NCBI GenBank assembly: GCA_964409875.1
Contig: CAYPEN010000002.1
Coordinates: forward strand, 274,630 to 338,629
DNA length: 64,000 bases
From: an uncultured Gammaproteobacteria bacterium
GTDB lineage: Bacteria; Patescibacteriota; Microgenomatia; Levybacterales; GWA1-39-11
Direction of reading: 5' to 3'
The position numbers were made by a program, and so were the translations under genes. Below the pieces are notes generated by a model. That model searched no databases, was not told the origin of the DNA, and saw only the letters and a program-made list of their open reading frames with translations. Positions 3,716-24,298 of the stretch are shown in pieces. How positions within the stretch are numbered: the stretch's first letter is position 1; each line of letters begins with the position of its first letter.

Positions 3716-4104
3716 GGGGATGAATTGAATCGACAGGAACTGTACTTTAAAAACTGCAAGCCGGCAATGACTCAAAGCCGTAAAAAAGGGTCAAAAATAC
3801 ATGCTAACAATACTGTTAGCGGTATAAAGCGGTTCTTCGCGGATCGCATTCCGGATGTAAATCCGGGATTAGGTTACGCGGCATTCGCCTAATACCTGTT
3901 TGCTTCCATTCCGCCTCAAGCTCGGGGAAGCAGGCATCAACCAGCTTGAAAACTTAACGGGGCTGACCGAACCGTTTCGCAAAAGGTCTTAGCTGTTTCA
4001 TTCTGCGTTTGGGAGGTCAGAAACGGCAAAATATATCTCAAACTACGCTTGTAGATGTTTTTGAATATGGTTTTTGGACGCCGGTTCGTTACCGGCCATC
4101 TCCA
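3716..4104 (+). ncRNA. ssrA: tmRNA (SsrA)
   Basis: The 5' end GGGGATGAATTGAATCGACAGG parallels E. coli GGGGCUGAUUCUGGAUUCGACGGG. The 3' end GGACGCCGGTTCGTTACCGGC-CATCTCC-A parallels GGACGCGGGUUCAACUCCCGC-CAGCUCC-A, with the acceptor strand complementary to the 5' GGGGATG including a G3-U pair. An internal tag reading frame ends ...PGLGYAAFA followed by TAA at 3890-3892. Confidence 0.8.
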
Positions 4105-5605
4105 CACCAGTGTTTTTTGAAGTTGCTAAATTACCGATTAGCTTGACAGGATAGGCCAAACTTGCGGTTCCAAAGCCATTCTTGTAGTCATATTCAACTT
4201 TTCCGTTAAAATAAGCGTATAGAACAGCTTTCTTATCGTTCACATTTTCACTTTGCCACATATCAATAGGATTTTTTAGCAGTGAAAATAGTTTTTCCGT
4301 AGCGGTTCCAAATCTTTCGTCATTGTAGGGGTTGGATATTAACTCCATATCAATAGACCTAATCTCTTGAGAGTATTTTTCAATTTCGTTTTCATAAACC
4401 TTAATTAAATCTTCACTTGAGGCTTTAGTTATTCGTTCAAGTAGACTTGAAACTTTTGCTTCTAATTCAACTTTTCTATTTAAGTAAAGTTGTCTAATCT
4501 CCTCGTAGCTATTTTTCTTTAAGTTCCATGCTTCTGTTAACACTAATTTTGCAACGTCTAAAATCGTGTTATCTAACCTAACCTTGTATAATAATGCTTC
4601 GAATTGGTCCTCCATGCTTTTCCTTCCTATAACCTTATACTTGTACTTGCAATACTTATTGATACAGAAATAATTGGGATATCTACGACCATGACGACCA
4701 GTGTTCCAAGATGCTGTAAGAGGCTTATTGCACGAAACACAGATAATATGAGTTCGTAATGGAAAATCACTTGAATAGTCGTGTCTTGTCCATTTTTTCC
4801 CTTTTGACCTTATTCTTTGTTGGACTTTTTCGTAGGTTTCAATTGTTATAATGCCTTCATGATGACCTTTTCGCCTCTCTACACTCCATTTAGGGTACTC
4901 CACGTAGCCTGTATATAGTATTTGCCTAAGTATTCGCTGGGTACCGCTTAATGAAAGTTTTTTAGTTATACCATGCTCTTTATATTTGTTGAGAATAAAT
5001 CTCTGAACATCTTCCTGAGTGTTCAGAATACCCACGGCGTAATTTTCTAATGCAGTTTTAATGATAGAAGCGTATGGTTCGACGGGTTTTAATAGCTTCC
5101 CGTGGATAGGGTCTTTAACAGCTGAGAGGCCCAGGGGTGGAAAAAAGGCCCAGTAGCCCTTCTCTAATCGTGCTTTTTGCTTCTGAATAACCTGTCTTCT
5201 ATTGGATTTACGTTGATACTGATTGCTAACGGCTAACATTAGCTCAGCCATTTCGCTCTCATCACTTTCTTCAAAGTTGAAGTTCAAACATTCTAGTCTT
5301 ACCCCTCTAGAGGAAAACTCCGCCCTAAGTTGGATATGAACTTTAACGTCTCTTGCAAACCGTGATAAATCATCAAATATTATTACGTATTCTTCTAATG
5401 TATGGTTATCGATATATTGGATAAGTTGCTTCATGGCAGGCCTTTCAAATAAACCACCGCTTATACCGTCATCAGGAAATACTGCTTCTACGGGATAACC
5501 TTTTTGGACTGCATGAACCCTGCATCTTTGCTCTTGGGAGCTCAAACCATTACCTTCCTTAACCTGCCTCTGACTAGAAACCCTACAATAGATAAGTGCC
5601 TTCAT
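4043..5605 (-). CDS. Large serine recombinase (serine integrase type)
   Basis: N-terminal resolvase catalytic domain (LIYCRVSSQRQ with the Ser nucleophile), a recombinase domain, a Cys-rich zinc ribbon (ICVSCNKPL...CINKYCKYK) and a C-terminal coiled coil. The last roughly 20 codons overlap the tmRNA T-arm and acceptor. Confidence 0.9.
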   Translation of the reverse strand: MKALIYCRVSSQRQVKEGNGLSSQEQRCRVHAVQKGYPVEAVFPDDGISGGLFERPAMKQLIQYIDNHTLEEYVIIFDDLSRFARDVKVHIQLRAEFSSRGVRLECLNFNFEESDESEMAELMLAVSNQYQRKSNRRQVIQKQKARLEKGYWAFFPPLGLSAVKDPIHGKLLKPVEPYASIIKTALENYAVGILNTQEDVQRFILNKYKEHGITKKLSLSGTQRILRQILYTGYVEYPKWSVERRKGHHEGIITIETYEKVQQRIRSKGKKWTRHDYSSDFPLRTHIICVSCNKPLTASWNTGRHGRRYPNYFCINKYCKYKYKVIGRKSMEDQFEALLYKVRLDNTILDVAKLVLTEAWNLKKNSYEEIRQLYLNRKVELEAKVSSLLERITKASSEDLIKVYENEIEKYSQEIRSIDMELISNPYNDERFGTATEKLFSLLKNPIDMWQSENVNDKKAVLYAYFNGKVEYDYKNGFGTASLAYPVKLIGNLATSKNTGVEMAGNEPASKNHIQKHLQA

Positions 5606-15838: not shown

Positions 15839-15900
15839 TGGGCATGTAGCTCAGGGAATGCTCTTTTTGCTCAAGCAAAAAGTAGAGCGCATTCTTACGT
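15839..15900 (+). pseudogene. Degenerate 5'-half copy of tRNA-Ile with a roughly 27-nt hairpin insertion in the D-loop
   Basis: gggcatgtagctcaggg + aatgctctttttgctcaagcaaaaag + tagagcgcattctta matches the first 37 nt of the downstream tRNA but has no T-arm or acceptor 3' strand. Confidence 0.6.
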
Positions 15901-15951
15901 TAAAAAAAGACTTGAAAACCGCATACAGAACTTAAATTAGTTTATGTTATT

Positions 15952-16023
15952 CGGGCATGTAGCTCAGGGGTAGAGCGCCATTCTTATAAAATGGATGTCC
16001 TTGGTTCGATTCCAAGCATGCCC
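15952..16023 (+). tRNA. tRNA-Ile, anticodon TAT (UAU)
   Basis: A manual cloverleaf fold gives acceptor gggcatg/catgccc, D-stem gctc/gagc, anticodon stem ccatt/aatgg with loop cttataa, and T-stem cttgg/ccaag with loop ttcgatt. No CCA is encoded. Confidence 0.75.
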
Positions 16024-16071
16024 ACAAAAGCCCCACAGCCAACTTCATGATTGTCTTTTTTTAACGAGCTA

Positions 16072-16110
16072 AAAATGGATGTCTTGGGTATCGATTCCAA
16101 GGATGCCCAC
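16072..16110 (+). repeat. Degenerate direct copy of the tRNA-Ile 3' half (anticodon-stem 3' strand through acceptor)
   Basis: aaaatggatgtcttgggtatcgattccaaggatgcccac matches aaaatggatgtccttggttcgattccaagcatgcccac of the tRNA 47 nt upstream. It abuts the stop of the T4CP-like gene. Confidence 0.65.
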
Positions 16111-16117
16111 CGACAAA

Positions 16118-18529
16118 TTATAAATTTCCCCCAAATCCTCCGTCTTTTCCCGGCAATTTATCCTGCGGGCTGTCTCCCAGCACTTCAAATAATCGCGAAC
16201 GCTTTGCAATTTCTTGGTCGACCAAATTCCTATCTCTGCCGTATTTGAGACGGGAGAGCTCGCGGATAAGTTCTGCAACTCTCGGGTTTTCTTTTTTCTT
16301 ATCCTCTTCAATATTGCGGGTCAAATCCAGAGAAAACGGAGGTGTCGGGTCTCCTCCGACAAGCGTTTTAACATACGCATGATACCGCTCTACATTGATA
16401 AGGTCTCCTTCATTGAATGTTGGTTGGAATTCATGCTGCAGATAATTTGCGTCGGTGACTCCTACCCGAAATGAAGCAATTGTTCCGACGTTTCCAAAAA
16501 TAGCGTTTTTGACATCCTCCTCAATTTGTCCTATGAACTGGTTCGCAACCGTCAGGTTGAGCCGGTATTTCCGTGCCTCTGACAAAATCTGAGCAAAATC
16601 AGGGGTGGCAAAATTCTGGAACTCATCAACATAGAGGAAGAAATCTTTCCTGTCTTTCTGCTCCATGTCTTGCCTGCTCATAGCCGCGACCAACAGCTTT
16701 GGTACAAGAATAAGACCCAAAAAGCTTGAGTTCTCTTCCCCGATGCGGCCTTTATTCAGGGAGATAAGAAGAATTTTTTGGTTGTCCATGACCTCTCTAA
16801 AATTGAAAGCGCTTTCCGACTGGCCGATGATATTCCTCATCATCTTGTTGGTTACGAAACGTCCGAATTTACTGACAATATAGTCAAGTGTTTCTGACTT
16901 ATGAAAGTCGGACGTTTGGGCAATTTGGTCCGTCCAGTAGCGCCTGACCATTGGGTCATCAACTTTCGGCAATAATTCCTGGACGAATGACATATCCGTC
17001 AGGGCTCTTACAACCTCAACAAATGTATTCCCCTTCTCAGCCATAACAGTCAGCATCGCATTTCTGACAGAGTGCTCGAAGCGGGGTCCGATGATACCTG
17101 TTTTCTGCGGATCGTACAACTTATACATTAGGTTAATAATTGAGGACGTGACAAAGTGTTTCTGGTCTTCGGTGTCGGCTTCCAACATATTAAGCCCCAT
17201 TGGGCGTTCCGTATCGGACGGGTCAAAAAGTATGACGTCTTCTGCGCGCTGGGGGGGGACAAGAGTCAAAATGTCATCGATAAGGTCGCCATGTGGGTCA
17301 ATAACCGCAACCCCTTTACCGGCGCGAATGTCCTGCATTATCATATCCTTTAAAAATTCTGATTTTCCGACACCGGTCTTTCCGATGATATACATATGCC
17401 TTCTCCTGTCATCGTCTCCGATATACACTGATTTTACTTGTCCACGGAACAGACTTTTTCCAATATATAGTCCCTCTGTTGGAATATTTGCAGGAGCCGG
17501 GGCAGTGCGAGCAGCGAGCCAATTAATATAGGGACTTTCAACACTTTTATTGGGAAAATGGAAAACAGTTGCAAGTTCTTCGGTTGTAAGGACAGTGCCT
17601 TTGTCAAAAAGTGGAAGGTGTCTATAAATAAAATCTACCATCAACATGCTTTTGAAAAATTTAGGCTCCGCCTTGGTAAAGGAATTATAGGGAGAAGAGA
17701 ATTGGGTGAATGAGCCTTCAATATTCGAAAGATGGGCTTCCGCAGCTTCTTTTGTGGATGAGGCGACAACCACACGTATAAAAGTAAGAAAGCCTGGCTT
17801 TGTGATTTTTTGTTCAATTGCCTCCAATTCCTTCGGGTCGGTTGAGTACTTTGCCGTTTCTGGATTTGACTCCTGTTTTTTCTTGTCCGTCACAAATGTT
17901 CTTCCGGCTTTTTTCCATTCGTCTCCTGCATTGGCGATGACAAATTGGACAGCCGCTGACTCACCTTCCTGCATTTTCCCAAGGGTTGCGGTAATTGTAG
18001 ACAGGGGATCGAGCGCAAAATCTTTATAGGTTTTTATCGGTTTGAATCCTTCCTTTTTGAGTGTAAATCCGGCGAATGCGACTTTTCCTTCGTTTTCAAA
18101 AATATTATAATCATCAACTTCTTTTATCTGTGCGTCAGGATATGCTCCATTGATTTGTTTTTCGACCATGTCTTGCAGTTTTCTGGGAACACCAACATAA
18201 AACCTTATGTCTTGCGGTTTGGCAACTATCTCAAATGTAATGCTATCTCCAACCTTCGTGAAAGCAAATAGTCCTTTTGGGGCTTTAAGGGAGGCAAAAC
18301 TGGAAAAAAGTTGTTCAGCAGCATCAATCTTTATTTCGTTATCTCGCGGAAGGCTTATCTCAAGAAGTGTTGAATCAAGCGATTTTTTGTGCCGCTCTTT
18401 TGCACGCCTCCAGATGCCATAAAAATATATTGCAGCAATGCTACCTGCTGCAACCAGGCTTATAACAAGTAGCGACCCCATCCCAACCAGGAGAAGATTC
18501 AAAATTGTTTGTGTATTAATGATATTCAT
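16118..18529 (-). CDS. FtsK/HerA/VirD4(TraG/TraD)-superfamily membrane-anchored ATPase (type IV coupling-protein-like)
   Basis: N-terminal TM helix. Walker A is IIGKTGVGKSEF followed by AVIDPHGDL. Walker B with the arginine region is FLYVDEFQNFATP...ARKYRLNLTVANQ. A roughly 330-aa N-terminal extension precedes the ATPase. Confidence 0.65.
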   Translation of the reverse strand: MNIINTQTILNLLLVGMGSLLVISLVAAGSIAAIYFYGIWRRAKERHKKSLDSTLLEISLPRDNEIKIDAAEQLFSSFASLKAPKGLFAFTKVGDSITFEIVAKPQDIRFYVGVPRKLQDMVEKQINGAYPDAQIKEVDDYNIFENEGKVAFAGFTLKKEGFKPIKTYKDFALDPLSTITATLGKMQEGESAAVQFVIANAGDEWKKAGRTFVTDKKKQESNPETAKYSTDPKELEAIEQKITKPGFLTFIRVVVASSTKEAAEAHLSNIEGSFTQFSSPYNSFTKAEPKFFKSMLMVDFIYRHLPLFDKGTVLTTEELATVFHFPNKSVESPYINWLAARTAPAPANIPTEGLYIGKSLFRGQVKSVYIGDDDRRRHMYIIGKTGVGKSEFLKDMIMQDIRAGKGVAVIDPHGDLIDDILTLVPPQRAEDVILFDPSDTERPMGLNMLEADTEDQKHFVTSSIINLMYKLYDPQKTGIIGPRFEHSVRNAMLTVMAEKGNTFVEVVRALTDMSFVQELLPKVDDPMVRRYWTDQIAQTSDFHKSETLDYIVSKFGRFVTNKMMRNIIGQSESAFNFREVMDNQKILLISLNKGRIGEENSSFLGLILVPKLLVAAMSRQDMEQKDRKDFFLYVDEFQNFATPDFAQILSEARKYRLNLTVANQFIGQIEEDVKNAIFGNVGTIASFRVGVTDANYLQHEFQPTFNEGDLINVERYHAYVKTLVGGDPTPPFSLDLTRNIEEDKKKENPRVAELIRELSRLKYGRDRNLVDQEIAKRSRLFEVLGDSPQDKLPGKDGGFGGNL

Positions 18530-18750
18530 ATATTTTTTTCTTCAAATTGACTTTCATCTATCAGGCGCCCTTCTTCGTGTTGAGCCAATTCGCCTACCGT
18601 TTGTCCTTGGATAAGATGGACGGTTTCCTCAAGGCGTTTGTGGTGTTGTCCCTCATGATGTGTTGTTATTCCAACGATGTCAGTTTTGGGTATTACGGCA
18701 TCCGAAGCGTATGCCACAATTTCACGAAGCGTATCTACGGGCGCATTCAT
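18526..18750 (-). CDS. Small hypothetical protein, possibly co-transcribed with the ATPase (4-nt overlap)
   Basis: ORF-track entry, His/Glu-rich. No motif recognised. Confidence 0.3.
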   Translation of the reverse strand: MNAPVDTLREIVAYASDAVIPKTDIVGITTHHEGQHHKRLEETVHLIQGQTVGELAQHEEGRLIDESQFEEKNI

Positions 18751-18898
18751 ACGTATTTATAATACCATAGTAGCAATCTACCCACAATTTCGTACGCCTC
18801 ATAAATCCATCTCAAGACGCTTCCTTTTGAGCTTAAGTTTGATATAATGATACAACTTTGTAAGGGGCAGGTAGGGAAGCGGTATGGTGAAAATGGTT

Positions 18899-19091
18899 GG
18901 GAGGAGTCGCATGAAATCTCTTTGAGATGTTCTACGACTCTTAGATAAGAAATAAAGGAGGAGTCGCATGAGAAATCTCTTTGAGATGTTCTACGACTCT
19001 TAGATAAGAAACCAAGGAGGAGTCGCATAAGAACCTGGCATAAGACCAGAACCTTGTACGATCCTATTCGTTACACTCGGAGGAGTCGCAT
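18899..19091 (+). repeat. Array of four copies of GGAGGAGTCGCAT (the tRNA-Ser-GCT 5' end) at 58/58/63-nt spacing; the fourth copy is the start of the tRNA itself
   Basis: Copies start at about 18899, 18957, 19015 and 19079. Spacers 1 and 2 are near-identical (gaaatctctttgagatgttctacgactcttagataagaaa); spacer 3 is unrelated. Confidence 0.8.
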
Positions 19092-19169
19092 AGTTGGCCC
19101 ATTGCGGGGGGTTGCTAACCCCCTGAGCTCTTAAACAAGCTCGCGCAGGTTCGAATCCTGTCTCCTCCG
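19079..19169 (+). tRNA. tRNA-Ser, anticodon GCT (type II, long variable arm)
   Basis: Acceptor ggaggag/ctcctcc, 3-bp D-stem gca/tgc, anticodon stem ggggg/ccccc with loop ttgctaa, a roughly 21-nt variable arm, T-stem gcagg/cctgt with loop ttcgaat, discriminator g. Confidence 0.8.
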
Positions 19170-19214
19170 CATGAGTTTGAGTCGACAGGATTTGCTGTTT
19201 ATCAACAGAACGTC

Positions 19215-19231
19215 TCCTGTCTCCTCCGCAC
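19215..19231 (+). repeat. Direct copy of the tRNA-Ser(GCT) 3' end (tcctgtctcctccgca), about 50 nt downstream of the tRNA
   Basis: tctcctgtctcctccgca at 19214-19231 matches atcctgtctcctccgca at 19155-19171. Confidence 0.7.
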
Positions 19232-19233
19232 GC

Positions 19234-20835
19234 ATGAAGCGGATATTCCTACAGACATACGCATTCTTACTTTTCATTTTTCTTGTAGCTATTTTTTTCC
19301 GTCCGGTAACTGCAATCAATGACGATTTGGGGCGGCACATCCTTCTGGGGAATATAATACTTGCCAGTCACGCTGTCCCCTCCATAAATCTCTTGTCGTA
19401 CACGTTCTCCGGTTTTTCATTTATCAATACGACTTGGTTATACGAAGTGATTTCCGCACTTATTGTAAAAAGTTTTGGATTGAATGGCTTGCTTTTTGTA
19501 AGCTGCATTGCTGCAGTAAGCGCTTGTATGTATCAATTTCGTTATGTTGCTTCCCGTTTTCCGAAAATCTCTGTTGTTGCTATATCTACTCTTTTCTTGT
19601 TGCTTTTAAGTTTTCGTACGGACGTGCGTCCTGAAATCTTTAGCATGCTTTTTCTGTCGGTATTTACTGTTTCACTTTATCGGTATTTCGAAAAACCCAC
19701 ACGAAAAATTTTTTTTCTCATTCCCCTCGAAGCATTATGGGTAAATATGCATATTTATTTTTTTGCAGGTCCCCTTATTCTTGCAGTATTTATAATAGGA
19801 AGCTTTGATGGGAAATTGACGAAAAAAACAAAAGAACTGTTGATGGTTTTTGCCGGTGTTATAGCAATAACCCTTCTTAATCCAAATGGCATCAAGGGAG
19901 CTCTGTTTCCGCTGGTCGTTCTTCAGAATTATGGATTTCCCGTTGTTGAGAACCAAACAATTTTTACACTTTTTCGGATATATCAAAATCCTGCAATTTT
20001 CCTTCCATTAATAAGTATATTTTTGGTGGTGTTATTGATGTTTTTGGGAAGAACGAATGTGACAAGAAGGGACGTACTGCTTGTCACATGCTTTGGAATG
20101 CTTGCTCTTCTCAATTTTAGAAACGTCCTTCTTTTTATATTTACAACCTTTATATTTTCAGTTTCCCAACTGGATTTCGTTTTAAAAATATATAAAAAGC
20201 GAATTAAAAAATTCCCCCGAAATTCTTTTATAAGTCTGTACCCTTTAAGCCTCTTTTTTGTCGTGGTTTTAATTCTAAAATCCGTCAGTACTCATGGAGT
20301 TGGTTTTGGGGTGGTTGAGTACGGAAGGGAGAGTGTAAATTTTTTGCTGCAAAATAAAATTTCCGGTCCGATATATAACGATTTTAATATTGGAGGGTAT
20401 CTCTCATCCAGAATGTATCCGCAAAAAGTATTTGTAGACAATAGACCTGAAGCCTATCCAAAGAAATTTTTTACAGACTTTTATTTGCCGATGCAGAAAA
20501 ACCCGAAACTTTTTGAAACGTTGGATAGCAAATATAACTTCAATGCGATTATTGTTTCCCACTATGATGGGACAAATTACCCAAATCCATTGCTTCGGTA
20601 TTTTGCTCAAAACCCGCAATTTTCAATAGTATATTTAGACGGTTACGCAATGGTTTTGGTGAGAAATTCTCCAGACAACAAACAATTCATCGATAAACAT
20701 CAAATAAGAAAGGATACGTTGAATTTCAGCACTATAGTCGACCGCCAAGCCCTGCTTCGGTATCTATTGTTTTTAGAAAAAGAAGGCTGGTCAGATAAAG
20801 AAGAGCAGGTATTAAAACAGCTGGAAAACATGTAA
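19234..20835 (+). CDS. Polytopic membrane protein, possibly a GT-C-type glycosyltransferase
   Basis: At least 10 hydrophobic helices. A DD motif (AINDDLGRH) sits in the first extracytoplasmic loop, as in GT-C enzymes. A C-terminal soluble domain follows. The start was moved to the internal ATG at 19234 to clear the tRNA. Confidence 0.45.
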   Translation: MKRIFLQTYAFLLFIFLVAIFFRPVTAINDDLGRHILLGNIILASHAVPSINLLSYTFSGFSFINTTWLYEVISALIVKSFGLNGLLFVSCIAAVSACMYQFRYVASRFPKISVVAISTLFLLLLSFRTDVRPEIFSMLFLSVFTVSLYRYFEKPTRKIFFLIPLEALWVNMHIYFFAGPLILAVFIIGSFDGKLTKKTKELLMVFAGVIAITLLNPNGIKGALFPLVVLQNYGFPVVENQTIFTLFRIYQNPAIFLPLISIFLVVLLMFLGRTNVTRRDVLLVTCFGMLALLNFRNVLLFIFTTFIFSVSQLDFVLKIYKKRIKKFPRNSFISLYPLSLFFVVVLILKSVSTHGVGFGVVEYGRESVNFLLQNKISGPIYNDFNIGGYLSSRMYPQKVFVDNRPEAYPKKFFTDFYLPMQKNPKLFETLDSKYNFNAIIVSHYDGTNYPNPLLRYFAQNPQFSIVYLDGYAMVLVRNSPDNKQFIDKHQIRKDTLNFSTIVDRQALLRYLLFLEKEGWSDKEEQVLKQLENM

Positions 20836-20885
20836 TTCGCTTCAATAAACTCCCTCGGAATGATATAATCGTTAGACCAAATTAT

Positions 20886-21027
20886 TAGGAGAGGTCGCAT
20901 GAAATTTAGCAATGCTAAATATTCTCCGACCTGTTGTGATAAAAAATTTAGGAGAGGTCGCATAACAACCTTGCTTCGCAAGAACGTTGTCCGACTCTTC
21001 TTATTGCATTAGGAGAGGTCGCATAGT
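20886..21027 (+). repeat. Array of three copies of TTAGGAGAGGTCGCAT (the tRNA-Ser-TGA 5' end) at 64/60-nt spacing; the third copy is the start of the tRNA
   Basis: Copies lie at about 20886, 20950 and 21010. The spacers differ but share cgactctt with the spacers of the other tRNA-Ser array. Confidence 0.8.
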
Positions 21028-21094
21028 GGTCGAGTGCAGCGGTCTTGAAAACCGCCAAGCGAAAGCTTCGAGGGTTCGAATCCCTCCCTCTCCG
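21012..21094 (+). tRNA. tRNA-Ser, anticodon TGA (type II)
   Basis: Acceptor ggagagg/cctctcc, D-stem gca/tgc, anticodon stem gcggt/accgc with loop cttgaaa, long variable arm, T-stem gaggg/ccctc with loop ttcgaat, discriminator g. Confidence 0.8.
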
Positions 21095-21158
21095 CACCTT
21101 CATATTCCCTCCCGTCATTCCTCTTGTGTTTTTCCCATTTTTCTTTTACAGTTGATAT

Positions 21159-21647
21159 ATGAGGCTAAAAATTACGAGAACAGAATTTCCTTTGCTTGTT
21201 TTTTCAATTCTCCTGCCGCAGCTTGTAGGGACCGTTGGCGCTTTTTTTACCTTTTCATCAATTGCCAGTTGGTATATGTATTTGGAAAAACCCGGGTTTA
21301 CTCCCCCCGATTGGGTTTTCGGTCCGGTGTGGTCGACACTCTATATTTTGATGGGTATATCGCTTTTTTTGGTAGTAAGACATTCTATGAATGGGAAAAA
21401 TATCCGTGCGGTACAGATATTTTTTCTACAACTTTTTTTAAACCTTCTTTGGTCGATAGTCTTTTTTGGCTCCCACTCAATAGGTGGTGGATTGGTAGTC
21501 ATTATTGTCATGTGGTTTCTTATTGTTATAACAATTCTTAAATTTGCAAAACATTCAGGTTATGCGGCGCTCCTTCTCCTCCCGTATCTTGCTTGGGTTA
21601 CTTTTGCGACCTATCTTAACTTTGTCATCTTCATGCTTAATTCATGA
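21159..21647 (+). CDS. tspO: TspO/MBR family tryptophan-rich sensory protein
   Basis: PPDWVFGPVWSTLYILMGIS and LPYLAWVTFATYLN are signature TspO blocks. Five TM helices. Confidence 0.8.
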   Translation: MRLKITRTEFPLLVFSILLPQLVGTVGAFFTFSSIASWYMYLEKPGFTPPDWVFGPVWSTLYILMGISLFLVVRHSMNGKNIRAVQIFFLQLFLNLLWSIVFFGSHSIGGGLVVIIVMWFLIVITILKFAKHSGYAALLLLPYLAWVTFATYLNFVIFMLNS

Positions 21648-22873: not shown

Positions 22874-24298
22874 ATGACTTTTGATAATCTTGCGATTCTT
22901 GATGTTGAAACGACTGGGGCAACTGCCTCATACGACCGTATTATTGAAATAGGTCTTCTGAGAATTGAAAATGGAAAAGTAGTCAAAAAGCTCGATACGC
23001 TCCTCAATCCTGAAGTTACTCTTTCTCCCTTTATTGAAGGGCTTACCGGAATTGCCAGCCGGGATTTGGAAAGTGCACCGCTTTTTTCTGACATCAAAAA
23101 TGAGATTGTTGAGATACTTGACGGATGTGTTTTTGTGGCACATAACGCAAGGTTCGATTATTCATTTGTACGGCAGGAGTTAAGACGCATTGGGATTCCC
23201 TATTCTGCAAAACAGCTATGTACCGTCAAATTATCGCGCCTTCTCTATCCTTCTTTTTCACATCACAATTTGGACAGCATTATAGAGCGGTTTGAAATTG
23301 AGTGCAAGAGAAGGCACCGGGCATATGATGACGCATTCGTATTGTGGGAGTTTTTAAATAAATTAGAAGATAGTATAGGGGAGGAAAAATTAGAAAAAGC
23401 GTTTAAGACAATTCTTAAAAAACCCTCTCTTCCCCCTCTTCTTAAAAATAAAGATATTGATGGGTTGCCGGAGCAGGCAGGAGTTTATATGTTTTTTGGA
23501 AAAAGTGAAATACCTTTATATATAGGAAAGAGCATCAATATAAAAGAGCGCGTACTTTCGCATTTTATCAATGACACCGATTCATCAACAGAACTTGAAA
23601 TCAGTCAGCAAGTCGAGCGCATCGAAACGGTTAAAACAGCAGGCGAATTATCCGCCCTACTTCTTGAGTCTGAGCTCATCAAGAAATTACAGCCTATATA
23701 TAATAGGAAGCTACGCTACGCCAGAAAGCTGACTTATCTTAAAAAGCACACTACTCCCGACGGGTATTTTACAGTTGAGTTGCGTCATGGAGAGGAAATA
23801 AAAGCCGATGAGTTGGAAGAGGTATTGGGGATTTTCAAAAGTAAGAAATCTGCCAAAGAACATTTGGCGCATCTGGTCAAAGAGCATTCCCTCTGCGAAA
23901 ATCTTTTGGGTTTACAAAAAACAATAAAGCCATGTTTTTCCTACCGGCTTGGGTGGTGCAAAGGGGCATGTGCAAAAAAAGAAAAGTCCGCGCTGTATAA
24001 CGCACGGTTTATTTTGGCATTTGGCAAAACAAAGTTGCGCGCCTGGCCATTTTCAGGACCCATTGTTATAAAAGAGAAAAGCGAAGACATTGAGGAGGGG
24101 TTAGTTTTTGACAAGTGGTGTTACTTGGGAAAATATTCTGAAGTTATGTATGAAGAGACTCCTGATGCAATTGCTGTTTCGGACTTTGATGTCTATAAAA
24201 TATTAACGTCGTTTTTAAAGGACCCAACTAATCACAAGAAAATTACAACATTAAAGAATTCAAAAGTATTACAAAACACCACAACTCCATTTATATAA
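22874..24298 (+). CDS. DnaQ-family 3'-5' exonuclease fused to a GIY-YIG nuclease domain (Cho/UvrC-homologue-like)
   Basis: Exo I/II/III motifs are ILDVETTG, FVAHNARFD and YDDA. The GIY-YIG block GVYMFFGKSEIPLYIGKSINIKERVLSHF follows. Confidence 0.7.
   Translation: MTFDNLAILDVETTGATASYDRIIEIGLLRIENGKVVKKLDTLLNPEVTLSPFIEGLTGIASRDLESAPLFSDIKNEIVEILDGCVFVAHNARFDYSFVRQELRRIGIPYSAKQLCTVKLSRLLYPSFSHHNLDSIIERFEIECKRRHRAYDDAFVLWEFLNKLEDSIGEEKLEKAFKTILKKPSLPPLLKNKDIDGLPEQAGVYMFFGKSEIPLYIGKSINIKERVLSHFINDTDSSTELEISQQVERIETVKTAGELSALLLESELIKKLQPIYNRKLRYARKLTYLKKHTTPDGYFTVELRHGEEIKADELEEVLGIFKSKKSAKEHLAHLVKEHSLCENLLGLQKTIKPCFSYRLGWCKGACAKKEKSALYNARFILAFGKTKLRAWPFSGPIVIKEKSEDIEEGLVFDKWCYLGKYSEVMYEETPDAIAVSDFDVYKILTSFLKDPTNHKKITTLKNSKVLQNTTTPFI

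What the first reader, a model, noticed from the sequence alone, without database searches (positions are those of the whole stretch)
20886..21027. Second, independent array: the 5'-terminal 16-mer of tRNA-Ser(UGA) (TTAGGAGAGGTCGCAT) repeated 3 times at 60-64 nt spacing
Same architecture as the tRNA-Ser(GCU) array but with the cognate sequence of this tRNA. Each array therefore copies its own tRNA's 5' end, so the arrays were generated locally rather than derived from one another. The spacers share a short motif (cgactctt) with the first array. A 38-codon ORF starting at the first repeat reads through the second and stops exactly at the tRNA start (CAT-TAG-GAGAGG), which is probably coincidental.
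Basis: seen in the sequence. Interest (0 to 1): 0.7.

Follow-up and report, generated by a model that had tools for sequence, protein, structure and literature searches.

The report
tRNA look-alike hairpins in tRNA leader
The repeats are real: the stretch just upstream of this serine tRNA gene holds two conserved hairpins, each starting with an exact copy of the tRNA's first 13 bases, and I found no earlier description of the same design, which recurs before many tRNA genes of candidate-phyla-radiation bacteria.

Summary
Observation confirmed. GGAGAGGTCGCAT occurs exactly three times (20888, 20951, 21012), and the last copy is nt 1-13 of tRNA-Ser(UGA).

Each upstream copy is the 5' strand of a conserved hairpin. 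It pairs with a downstream complementary strand; CGACTCTT is that strand. An 11-18 nt tail follows. The two units are different module types, and both types also occur in the tRNA-Ser(GCU) array, so the arrays are related, not independent.

Relatives (54-79% protein identity) carry 1-2 units at the same locus. Unit 2 is at least 90% identical between two relatives whose four-fold synonymous sites are 54% identical. Both module types show compensatory base changes.

About 57 metagenomic tRNA-Ser leaders, mostly CPR-like, have 1-4 such units. tRNA-Arg, tRNA-Leu and tRNA-Ile leaders have analogues. tRNA 3'-end copies occur only downstream.

Best reading: these are selected, modular RNA elements of the pre-tRNA leader. 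They look like truncated tRNAs (acceptor stem plus D stem), arose by partial duplication, and change in number by unequal exchange. They are probably cut by RNase P like the tRNA. Function is inferred, not shown.

The 37-codon ORF is not conserved. Rfam and five literature searches returned nothing matching. Closest known analogue: the E. coli tyrT 3'-end repeats.

The parts
20861..20869 (+). Extended -10 promoter-like box TGATATAAT, 18 nt upstream of the first copy. The predicted transcript start is near 20876.
   Evidence: Read from the sequence. The same box precedes the sister array at 18840-18848, and TATAAT-like boxes precede the arrays in L083-L085. Across loci, a -10-like hexamer lies within 45 nt of the first copy in 43 of 62 arrays, most often 10 nt away. 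This is a consensus match only; the promoter scan tool did not list it because there is no good -35.
20888..20950 (+). Leader unit 1 (type 1 module). Copy of tRNA nt 1-13 at 20888-20900, inner stem-loop at 20901-20925, complementary strand CCGACCT at 20926-20932, tail at 20933-20950.
   Evidence: Forms a hairpin in the minimum-energy fold, and forms as soon as it is transcribed in growing-transcript folds. In the type 1 alignment A3 (12 sequences) 95% of cells are paired, against 39-51% when partners are slid; 6 pairs change on both sides.
20951..21011 (+). Leader unit 2 (type 2 module). Copy of tRNA nt 1-13 at 20951-20963, inner stem with an AAC/AAC internal loop at 20964-20991, complementary strand CGACTCTTC at 20992-21000, single-stranded tail TTATTGCATTA at 21001-21011.
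   Evidence: Fold. Covariance model R1 scores 78.4 bits, E=3e-20. In alignment A2 (19 sequences) 86% of cells are paired against 36-50% when slid; 8 pairs change on both sides; 0 of 500 shuffles reach this. At least 55 of 61 nt are identical to L084, while four-fold synonymous sites are 54% identical.
21012..21095 (+). tRNA-Ser(UGA) gene. CCA is not encoded. Its nt 1-13 form the third repeat.
   Evidence: ARAGORN and Rfam RF00005.
18840..19078 (+). Sister leader of tRNA-Ser(GCU). TGATATAAT at 18840-18848. Units at 18900-18956 (type 1), 18957-19015 (type 1, 95% identical to the first) and 19016-19078 (type 2). Each unit starts with GGAGGAGTCGCAT.
   Evidence: R1 scores 63.5 bits at 19016-19078.
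19079..19170 (+). tRNA-Ser(GCU) gene.
19215..19230 (+). Exact copy of the last 16 nt of the tRNA-Ser(GCU) region (TCCTGTCTCCTCCGCA), 45 nt downstream of the tRNA and 3 nt before the true ATG (19234) of the 554-aa membrane-protein gene.
   Evidence: (family D5). Conserved with one mismatch in L003, where the annotated upstream ATG is absent.
15840..15897 (+). Pseudo 5' half of tRNA-Ile(UAU) in that tRNA's leader. nt 1-17 are exact (15840-15856). A 25-nt palindromic insertion in the D loop follows, then a copy of the D/anticodon-stem sequence.
16072..16110 (+). Degenerate copy of the 3' half of tRNA-Ile(UAU), from the anticodon loop to the 3' end, 47 nt downstream of the gene.

Best explanation
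The 'array' is the structured 5' leader of the tRNA-Ser(UGA) precursor. It consists of two tandem hairpin modules. Each module starts, exactly at the position equivalent to tRNA +1, with a copy of tRNA nt 1-13: the acceptor-stem 5' strand, U8, C9 and the D-stem 5' strand. Each closes on a complementary strand, so each module resembles a truncated tRNA (acceptor-like helix plus D-stem-like helix, then a module-specific stem-loop). An 11-18 nt single-stranded tail follows.

Shown:
- the repeats
- the hairpins, with compensatory base changes
- conservation well above the synonymous-site level
- turnover in the number and type of units
- recurrence in many CPR tRNA-Ser leaders and in tRNA-Arg, tRNA-Leu and tRNA-Ile leaders

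Inferred:
- The modules arose by partial duplication of the tRNA gene.
- They expand, contract and stay identical to the tRNA through unequal exchange or slippage between the 13-nt direct repeats.
- They are transcribed from the TGATATAAT promoter as part of the precursor, and each folds on its own as soon as it is made. This keeps the decoy 5' strand from competing with the genuine one.
- RNase P recognises each copy as it recognises the tRNA 5' end and cuts the leader into hairpin pieces, finally releasing the mature 5' end.
- The selected benefit is most likely in pre-tRNA processing, folding or stability. Candidates are a 5'-terminal protective stem-loop and a longer single-stranded RNase P landing site than the roughly 4-nt leader of array-less genes. 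The benefit itself is not established.
For: Exact repeats.

Folding. The minimum-energy fold of 20870-21098 is two hairpins plus a cloverleaf, z = -4.5, and the hairpins form co-transcriptionally.

Covariation. Type 2: 86% of cells paired versus 36-50% when slid, 8 double-sided changes, 0 of 500 shuffles. Type 1: 95% versus 39-51%. The conserved U13-G wobble (16 of 19 sequences) is only possible on the tRNA-sense strand.

Purifying selection. Window versus L084: unit 2 at least 90% identical, tRNA 96%, trailer 40%, four-fold synonymous sites 54%.

Orthologous loci carry 1-2 units.

74 unique tRNA-linked units:
- Identity with the tRNA ends at nt 13-14 in 58 of 74.
- 41 of 74 share no base with the tRNA's upstream flank at -1, so the copy starts at +1.
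- nt 1-7 are paired as the 5' strand in 60 of 74.
- The tail length peaks at 11-13 nt.

L170. Two paralogous units are identical at 36 of 38 hairpin positions. They differ only by the compensatory pair 3:36, which follows the tRNA's nt 3.

Cleavage-site context. The copies share the -4 A, -1 pyrimidine, no-G context of genuine tRNA 5' ends.

Promoter spacing. In array-less genes of the same class a -10-like box lies 9-12 nt upstream of tRNA +1 in 9 of 11 genes. In arrays the distance to the first copy is most often 10 nt (18 of 43 within 8-12 nt).

Localisation. R1 hits only the two leaders in 64 kb.

Persistence. At least one unit is present in all roughly 10 members of this tRNA-Ser(UGA) family, although a precise deletion between the direct repeats would be easy.
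Against: - There is no transcript or cleavage data. Promoter, co-transcription and RNase P cleavage are all inferred.
- RNase P does not read acceptor-stem sequence, so it does not by itself explain the exact 13-nt identity.
- The distance from the helix base to the internal or terminal loop differs between the Ser and Arg modules (about 16 versus 11-12 bp), so there is no constant T-loop-like ruler.
- Copy number varies from 0 to 4, and some tRNA-Ser genes of the same class have no unit. The element is therefore dispensable.
- The metagenome set was selected for exact 13-mers, which inflates the apparent identity.
- The hairpins could be under selection only to neutralise a harmful decoy strand.
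Confidence: 0.5

Rival explanations
1. Non-adaptive relics. Replication slippage or partial tandem duplication of the tRNA gene leaves truncated copies: 5' parts upstream and 3' parts downstream. The hairpins are kept only because an unpaired decoy strand would misfold the tRNA. The modules have no positive function.
For: - Orientation rule: 5' copies occur only upstream and 3' copies only downstream.
- Some copies extend to 17-26 nt, or carry a D-arm or anticodon-stem remnant (L098, L111, tRNA-Ile).
- Identical adjacent units in L104, L147, L150 and L090 show recent tandem amplification.
- Distal copies are more decayed in L104, L136, L140 and L085.
- E. coli tyrT shows that such repeats arise at tRNA loci.
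Against: - Unit 2 is at least 90% identical where synonymous sites are 54% identical.
- Module-specific motifs that are not derived from the tRNA (GAAAT/ATRTTCT, AAC/AAC loop) are conserved across distant lineages and across Ser and Arg leaders.
- A precise deletion between 13-nt direct repeats is easy and CPR genomes are small, yet at least one unit persists in every member of the family.
Confidence: 0.2
2. A cis-acting conformational switch or folding chaperone. The copy and the genuine 5' strand are identical, so the complementary strand can pair with either one. The precursor therefore toggles between a processable fold and a register-shifted fold, and this gates or assists tRNA maturation.
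For: - For the window array the canonical fold is -77.4 kcal/mol. The shifted fold is -76.3 kcal/mol; in it copy 2 forms the acceptor stem with the tRNA 3' strand and the genuine 5' strand pairs with the complement.
- Over 54 arrays the median energy difference is 1.0 kcal/mol, and 31 of 54 lie within 2 kcal/mol.
- Three-way tracking of copy, complement and tRNA (L170) is what shared-strand switches show.
- A synthetic RNase P riboswitch that works by sequestering the leader exists (PMC7897497, abstract).
Against: - Near-equal energies follow automatically from the sequence identity.
- Co-transcriptional order favours the canonical fold.
- No ligand-binding or sensing element has been identified.
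- Arrays of 2-4 units are not needed for a switch.
- The energies ignore tRNA tertiary structure.
Confidence: 0.15
3. Footprints of a mobile or integrative element that targets the 5' end of tRNA genes and duplicates its target (att-site or target-site duplication, MITE-like or REP-like).
For: - The copies always match the local tRNA, even where the complement fits less well (L104; window unit 2 needs a bulge).
- The same inner module is found at Ser and Arg genes with different flanking copies.
- Newer-looking units lie next to the tRNA.
Against: - The spacers are 35-65 nt and carry no gene.
- No integrase or transposase lies within 8 kb. The only recombinase in the window lies next to the tmRNA gene, 13 kb away.
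- The model finds no copy elsewhere in the 64 kb.
- The pattern has no hit in 2.9 million viral contigs.
- Known tRNA-targeting integrases duplicate the 3' part of the gene (my knowledge of the field, not tested here).
Confidence: 0.08
4. Leader-peptide attenuation. GGAGAGG acts as a Shine-Dalgarno site for the ATG in GCATG, and translation of a short Ser-codon ORF controls tRNA-Ser expression.
For: - Type 1 units have GGAG(R)(R)G, a 4-nt spacer, then ATG.
- Five orthologues keep a TCT codon at codon 9, and one unit in L170 reads MSSSSSVTSS.
Against: - The ORFs are 2-44 codons, with stops at codon 5 in several orthologues. Frame and length are not conserved.
- Type 2 units have ATA in place of ATG.
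- No terminator follows the units on the + strand.
- The shared residues come from conserved RNA-stem sequence.
Confidence: 0.03

Closest known systems
E. coli tyrT-tyrV operon repeats (rttR/tpr region)
   Same: These are tandem units in a tRNA operon transcript, each carrying an exact terminal segment of the tRNA. I verified in MG1655 that the last 19 nt of tRNA-Tyr occur 6 times on the tRNA strand, with 4 extra copies at a period of about 178 nt. This is directly comparable to the 3'-end copies seen here downstream of tRNA-Ser(GCU), and downstream of tRNA-Ser(UGA) in L084.
   Different: The E. coli repeats copy the 3' end, lie downstream and are 178 nt long; no 5' copies are present. The finding is the mirror image: 5' end, upstream, about 60 nt, each unit a hairpin closed on the copy.
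tRNA-like processing signals (plant mitochondrial t-elements)
   Same: They are partial tRNA look-alikes placed in transcripts. According to the paper's title and abstract they contribute to 5' and 3' end formation (PMC1920247, listed). That the tRNA-processing enzymes do this cutting is my own knowledge of the field, not something I read in the paper. This is the mechanism I infer for the modules.
   Different: t-elements punctuate mRNAs in organelles. They are not exact copies of the neighbouring tRNA's end and are not tandem leader modules. Cleavage of the present units is untested.
att-site duplications made by tRNA-targeting integrases
   Same: They are direct repeats of part of a tRNA gene flanking inserted DNA, and tandem accretion can give arrays.
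   Different: In known cases the 3' part of the gene is duplicated and the repeats flank kilobases that include an integrase gene (my knowledge of the field). Here the 5' end is repeated, the spacers are 45-50 nt conserved hairpins, and no integrase is nearby.
Shared-strand leader switches (attenuators, riboswitch expression platforms, synthetic RNase P riboswitch)
   Same: One strand has two alternative partners of similar sequence, and the predicted folds are near-isoenergetic. Sequestering a pre-tRNA leader can control RNase P (PMC7897497, abstract).
   Different: No sensor domain, terminator or ligand is evident, and no natural example in a tRNA leader is known to me.
REP (repetitive extragenic palindrome) elements
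   Same: They are short hairpin-forming intergenic repeats, often in tandem. About 39 of the 96 metagenome pattern hits were REP-like arrays that contain the same 13-mer by coincidence.
   Different: REPs are dispersed genome-wide and associated with RAYT/IS200-like genes. The present modules are found only in tRNA leaders and copy the adjacent tRNA.

Membership tests
CRISPR array | Direct repeats of about 23-50 nt separated by unique spacers of similar length | tested here: not met
   The repeat is 13-16 nt. The 'spacers' are conserved hairpin modules shared between arrays and between genomes.
CRISPR array | cas genes nearby | tested here: not met
   Pfam on 17 flanking ORFs between 7.2 and 29.4 kb found no Cas family.
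Integrase att-site duplication at a tRNA gene | The repeat is the 3' part of the tRNA and flanks an element that encodes an integrase | tested here: not met
   The repeat is tRNA nt 1-13 and lies upstream. The spacers are 48-50 nt. No integrase lies within 8 kb, and the pattern has no match in viral contigs.
REP / MITE-like dispersed palindromic repeat | Many dispersed copies in the genome, independent of the neighbouring gene | tested here: not met
   Model R1 hits only 19016-19078 and 20951-21011 in the 64 kb, and nothing in 80 unrelated CPR loci. Of 37 regex motif hits, 24 directly follow a tRNA-Ser 5' copy, most of the rest lie in tRNA-Arg leaders or are a second hairpin in the same unit, and two (L082, L096) are unexplained. 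The whole genome was not available.
Leader-peptide transcription attenuator | Conserved short ORF enriched in the cognate codon, plus a terminator/antiterminator pair | tested here: not met
   The ORFs are 2-44 aa and are not conserved. No terminator-like site was found on the + strand in 18500-21500.
Any Rfam family (T-box, known leaders and so on) | Match to a curated covariance model | tested here: not met
   Only tRNA and tmRNA hits reach threshold, and nothing covers the units even at E up to 1.
Terminal-segment repeats of tRNA operons (E. coli tyrT type) | Tandem units next to a tRNA gene, on its strand, each containing an exact terminal segment of that tRNA | tested here: met
   Window; E. 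coli. The finding differs in using the 5' end, lying upstream and having a period of about 60 nt.
RNase P substrate / tRNA-like minihelix | Helix starting at a G+1 that mimics the acceptor stem, preceded by a single-stranded leader | tested here: met
   nt 1-7 are paired as the 5' strand in 60 of 74 units, with 11-13 nt single-stranded tails. The -4 A / -1 pyrimidine / no-G context is the same as at genuine tRNA 5' ends.
RNase P substrate / tRNA-like minihelix | Actual cleavage by RNase P at the copy's +1 | not testable with these tools
   Needs an in vitro cleavage assay or 5'-end mapping.
RNase P substrate / tRNA-like minihelix | T-loop-like element at a fixed distance (about 12 bp) from the cleavage site | tested here: inconclusive
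   The loop or internal loop lies about 15-16 bp from the helix base in Ser units and 11-12 bp in Arg units.

The most novel reading that the evidence does not exclude
CPR bacteria use a previously undescribed class of cis-acting pre-tRNA leader elements. These are exact mimics of the tRNA's own 5' end built into hairpins. They make the precursor bistable and act as a strand-exchange switch or folding chaperone that gates RNase P maturation. This would be a natural control point at the level of tRNA processing, portable between tRNA-Ser, Arg, Leu and Ile genes.
Probability: 0.2. Interest if true: 0.85.

Novelty: new variant of a known kind. Interest (0 to 1): 0.66.

Why it matters
Bacterial pre-tRNA leaders are usually treated as short, unstructured sequences that are simply removed. 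Here a leader carries conserved, covarying modules that copy the tRNA's own 5' end. The design recurs in at least two CPR lineages and upstream of several tRNA species.

If the modules are cut by RNase P, or if they modulate folding, that would be a new layer of tRNA biogenesis in organisms with minimal genomes. It would also provide a natural set of minimal RNase P substrates.

Two practical points follow. The repeats break short-read assemblies at tRNA loci. They are also a candidate for a new RNA family in Rfam.

Tried and rejected
- Rfam at gathering threshold and at E up to 1: nothing at the units.
- Promoter inside each unit: the tails contain -35-like hexamers (TTGCAT, TTGACT), but no -10 lies at a workable distance, and the scan tool lists nothing on the + strand.
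- Terminator function: the only terminator-like hits are on the - strand. They are the inner stems read backwards.
- Coding ORF or leader peptide: not conserved.
- CRISPR, integrase att site and REP/MITE: see the membership tests.
- The metagenome pattern is not specific. About 39 of 96 hits are REP-like palindromes CGACCTCGGAGAGGTCGCATGTTGGTAG, unrelated to tRNAs.
- A simple duplex-energy test of the 13-mer against its spacer was weak, with 17 of 74 units at p <= 0.05, because a G-rich 13-mer pairs with any pyrimidine run. I relied on covariation instead.
- aaRS (SerRS) mimicry: attractive for Ser, since the acceptor stem and C11-G24 are kept. It does not generalise to the Arg modules, and the variable arm is absent.
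- tmRNA has no flanking copies.
- Trying to reach more tRNA loci of the same genome failed. Only short Logan contigs were returned.
- Literature searches found no description. A search for the old tyrT papers also failed, so I verified the tyrT repeats directly in MG1655.

Full report
**1. Observation**

The 13-mer GGAGAGGTCGCAT occurs exactly at 20888, 20951 and 21012. With up to two mismatches, the only other + strand matches in the 64 kb are the four GGAGGAGTCGCAT copies upstream of and at the start of tRNA-Ser(GCU); 0 of 100 shuffles reach the count. The third copy is nt 1-13 of tRNA-Ser(UGA), 21012-21095. With the TTA prefix the 16-mers start at 20885, 20948 and 21009. Two independent assemblies carry the identical array (L001, L002).

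**2. Anatomy in the window**

An extended -10 box, TGATATAAT (20861-20869), lies 18 nt upstream of the first copy. The same box precedes the sister array at 18840-18848.

Folding 20870-21098 as RNA gives two separate hairpins followed by a normal cloverleaf: -77.4 kcal/mol, z = -4.5. Growing-transcript folds show that each hairpin forms as soon as it is complete. In each hairpin the tRNA copy is the 5' strand of the basal helix.

- **Unit 1 (20888-20950):** copy, then CATGAAAT-stem-loop-ATATTCT, then the complement CCGACCT.
- **Unit 2 (20951-21011):** copy, then AAC-AAC-CTTGC-TTC-GCAAG-AAC-GTT, then the complement CGACTCTTC, then an 11-nt tail.

The 'shared motif' CGACTCTT is therefore the strand that pairs with the copy.

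The tRNA-Ser(GCU) leader has the same two module types: two type 1 units and one type 2 unit. Similarity between the arrays extends beyond the 13-mer (families D1 and D2). The arrays are related, while each copy matches its own tRNA (GGAGGAG versus GGAGAGG).

**3. Relatives**

The organism is a Levybacteria-like member of the CPR. Contigs whose orthologue of the 554-aa neighbour gene is 54-79% identical carry the tRNA-Ser(UGA) gene at the same place:

| Locus | Units upstream of tRNA-Ser(UGA) |
|---|---|
| L084 | 2 (type 1 + type 2) |
| L083 | 1 (type 2) |
| L085 | 1 (type 1, one mismatch in the copy) |

L085 also has a degenerate type 1 unit before tRNA-Ser(GCU). Spacing is 59-64 nt. Between orthologues the inner stem of type 1 changes with compensation: TTTAGC/GCTAAA, TCC/GGA, TTTTGC/GCAAAA.

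Between the window and L084 the identities are:

| Region | Identity |
|---|---|
| Four-fold synonymous sites | 54% |
| Unit 2 | at least 90% |
| tRNA | 96% |
| 60-nt trailer | 40% |

Unit 2 is under purifying selection.

**4. Wider distribution**

A metagenome scan for two copies of GGAGRRGTCGCAT separated by 35-65 nt gave 96 stretches. About 39 are unrelated REP-like palindromes that contain the 13-mer by coincidence. The remaining roughly 57 are tRNA-Ser genes of every isoacceptor (GCU, UGA, GGA, CGA, ACU), each preceded by 1-4 units.

One such contig (L156, 1.04 Mb) has a DnaA whose nearest named relatives are Patescibacteria, Berkelbacteria and CPR2. The design therefore spans more than one CPR lineage.

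Among 74 unique units:
- Identity with the tRNA ends at nt 13-14 in 58 units.
- 41 units share no base with the tRNA's upstream flank at -1, so the copy begins at +1.
- nt 1-7 are paired as the 5' strand in 60 units.
- The tail between the hairpin and the next copy peaks at 11-13 nt.

Because the scan required exact 13-mers, identity in this set is partly by selection of the sample. Unselected examples do exist: the GGTGGAG copies in L170, the GGAAGGG copy in L140, and the loci found through protein homology. These are also exact or nearly so.

**5. Structure statistics**

| Alignment | Cells forming standard pairs | Same, partners slid | Pairs changed on both sides | Shuffles reaching the covariation score |
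|---|---|---|---|---|
| Type 2 (A2, 19 sequences) | 86% | 36-50% | 8 | 0 of 500 |
| Type 1 (A3, 12 sequences) | 95% | 39-51% | 6 | 0 of 500 |

In the type 2 alignment the U13-G pair is a wobble in 16 of 19 sequences. That pair works only on the tRNA-sense strand.

A covariance model of type 2 (R1) finds only the two leader sites in the window. It finds nothing in 80 unrelated CPR loci, so this is not a dispersed repeat.

In L170, a unit of tRNA-Ser(GGA) and a unit of tRNA-Ser(GCU) are identical at 36 of 38 hairpin positions. They differ only by the pair 3:36 (A-T versus T-A), matching nt 3 of their respective tRNAs.

**6. Other tRNAs and the 3' side**

The same inner module, AA(G/C)AAC-stem-GAAC(C/G)TT, occurs in tRNA-Arg leaders. 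There it is flanked by an 8-9 nt copy of the tRNA-Arg 5' end and its complement (L157, L178).

Longer 5' copies followed by a pairing strand precede:
- tRNA-Leu(UAA), 17 nt (L043);
- tRNA-Arg(GCG), 21 nt (L125);
- tRNA-Ile(UAU), 17 nt, in this window.

Copies of tRNA 3' ends occur downstream:
- tRNA-Ser(GCU) at 19215-19230;
- two copies after tRNA-Ser(UGA) in L084;
- tRNA-Pro in L043 and L048.

The controls are clean. Apart from adjacent tandem tRNA-Ser genes and one 8-nt match, 5' copies are not found downstream, and 3' copies are never found upstream.

The known analogue for the 3' side is E. coli tyrT-tyrV. I verified six copies of the last 19 nt of tRNA-Tyr there, four of them extra, at a period of about 178 nt.

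**7. Mechanism**

*Shown:* the modules are conserved sense-strand hairpins confined to tRNA leaders. Their number and type turn over, and adjacent identical units occur in L104, L147, L150 and L090.

*Inferred:*
- **(a) Origin and concerted evolution.** The modules originated by partial duplication of the tRNA gene and evolve in concert with it through unequal exchange between the 13-nt repeats.
- **(b) Transcription.** They are transcribed from the upstream promoter. In array-less genes of the same class a -10-like box lies 9-12 nt upstream of tRNA +1 in 9 of 11 genes. In arrays the distance to the first copy is most often 10 nt, with 18 of 43 within 8-12 nt. In this family the distance is 11-19 nt.
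- **(c) RNase P recognition.** Each copy has the same upstream context as genuine tRNA 5' ends: A at -4 in 55-65%, pyrimidines at -3 to -1, and almost no G. This fits recognition by RNase P. The role of residue -1 and of the proximal leader in RNase P recognition is described in PMC10465520 and PMC5602109 (abstracts listed).
- **(d) Benefit.** The benefit probably lies in processing, folding or stability of the precursor.

Because copy and tRNA are identical, a register-shifted fold is almost as stable as the canonical one. In the shifted fold the copy forms the acceptor stem with the tRNA 3' strand. The energies are -76.3 versus -77.4 kcal/mol in the window; over 54 arrays the median difference is 1.0 kcal/mol. 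This keeps a switch or chaperone role open, but it is also an automatic consequence of the identity.

**8. Rivals**

- **Pure relics.** These are disfavoured by the conservation of unit 2 and of motifs not derived from the tRNA. They are also disfavoured because units persist although deletion between the direct repeats would be easy.
- **Integrative or mobile origin.** This lacks an integrase, dispersed copies and viral matches. The only recombinase in the window lies next to the tmRNA gene, 13 kb from the nearest array.
- **Leader peptide.** This is excluded by the non-conserved ORFs.
- **Known RNA families.** Rfam has no matching family. Five literature searches, and a term search within a recent paper on Patescibacteria tRNA genes, found no description.

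**9. Caveats**

- No expression or cleavage data exist.
- The wider sample is biased by the search pattern, and the frequency in unbiased CPR loci is low: about 4-6% of 47 tRNAs.
- Only three tRNA genes of this genome could be examined.
- Energies are nearest-neighbour estimates.

Noticed in passing
window 15840-16110: tRNA-Ile with the rare anticodon UAU (15953-16025) is flanked by two partial copies of itself. Upstream is a pseudo 5' half with a 25-nt palindromic insertion in the D loop. Downstream is a degenerate 3' half that begins in the anticodon loop. Together the two halves look like an older gene copy split around the present gene.
   Followed up: partly
window 19215-19236; L003 100-136: An exact 16-nt copy of the tRNA-Ser(GCU) 3' end sits 3 nt before the true ATG (19234) of the 554-aa membrane-protein gene, and this is conserved in a relative. 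The start at 19171 that matches the deposited 554-aa protein, directly abutting the tRNA, is probably wrong. Cleavage at this tRNA-end mimic would leave a nearly leaderless mRNA.
   Followed up: partly
L004 98-183; L038, L112, L124, L131, L153: Several relatives have a tRNA-Ser gene with predicted anticodon ACU (A34), usually in tandem with tRNA-Ser(GCU). An encoded A34 in a Ser tRNA is unusual.
   Followed up: no
window 3716-5605: A 520-aa serine recombinase (Resolvase domain) on the minus strand (4043-5605) overlaps the 3' end of the tmRNA gene (3716-4107). GC content drops to 0.35 over 4-8 kb. This looks like an element integrated at the tmRNA gene. The tmRNA tag peptide is unusually long (29 aa).
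   Followed up: no
L178 3700-3897 (= L094 10605-10731): Five tandem 36-nt AAGAACC..GAACCTT hairpins lie between a 9-nt copy of the tRNA-Arg(CCG) 5' end and that tRNA. The inner module can therefore amplify on its own.
   Followed up: partly
L086, L089, L102, L123, L138, L160 and others: REP-like palindromes CGACC(T/C)CGGAG(A/G)GGTCGCATGTTGGTAG occur in long tandem arrays, some next to an IS200/RAYT-like ORF (judged from its translated sequence only). They contain the same 13-mer as the tRNA-Ser 5' end, apparently by coincidence.
   Followed up: no
L001, L002 (start 97 nt before tRNA-Ser GCU); L004: Short-read contigs end inside or next to the repeat arrays. These leaders are therefore likely under-represented or collapsed in metagenome assemblies.
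   Followed up: no
window 22874-24298: This 474-aa ORF fuses an RNase T/DnaQ-type exonuclease domain with a GIY-YIG nuclease domain. Just upstream of the tRNA-Ser(GCU) leader lies an 803-aa TrwB/TraG-like coupling-protein homologue (16118-18529).
   Followed up: no
L084 1792-1910; L083 1511-1590: Downstream of tRNA-Ser(UGA), relatives carry one or two units that end in an exact 18-nt copy of the tRNA 3' end and are closed by a T-stem-like helix with two inserted hairpins. The window itself lacks these units. In the fold of L084 the tRNA 5' strand pairs with the downstream copy instead of its own 3' strand.
   Followed up: partly
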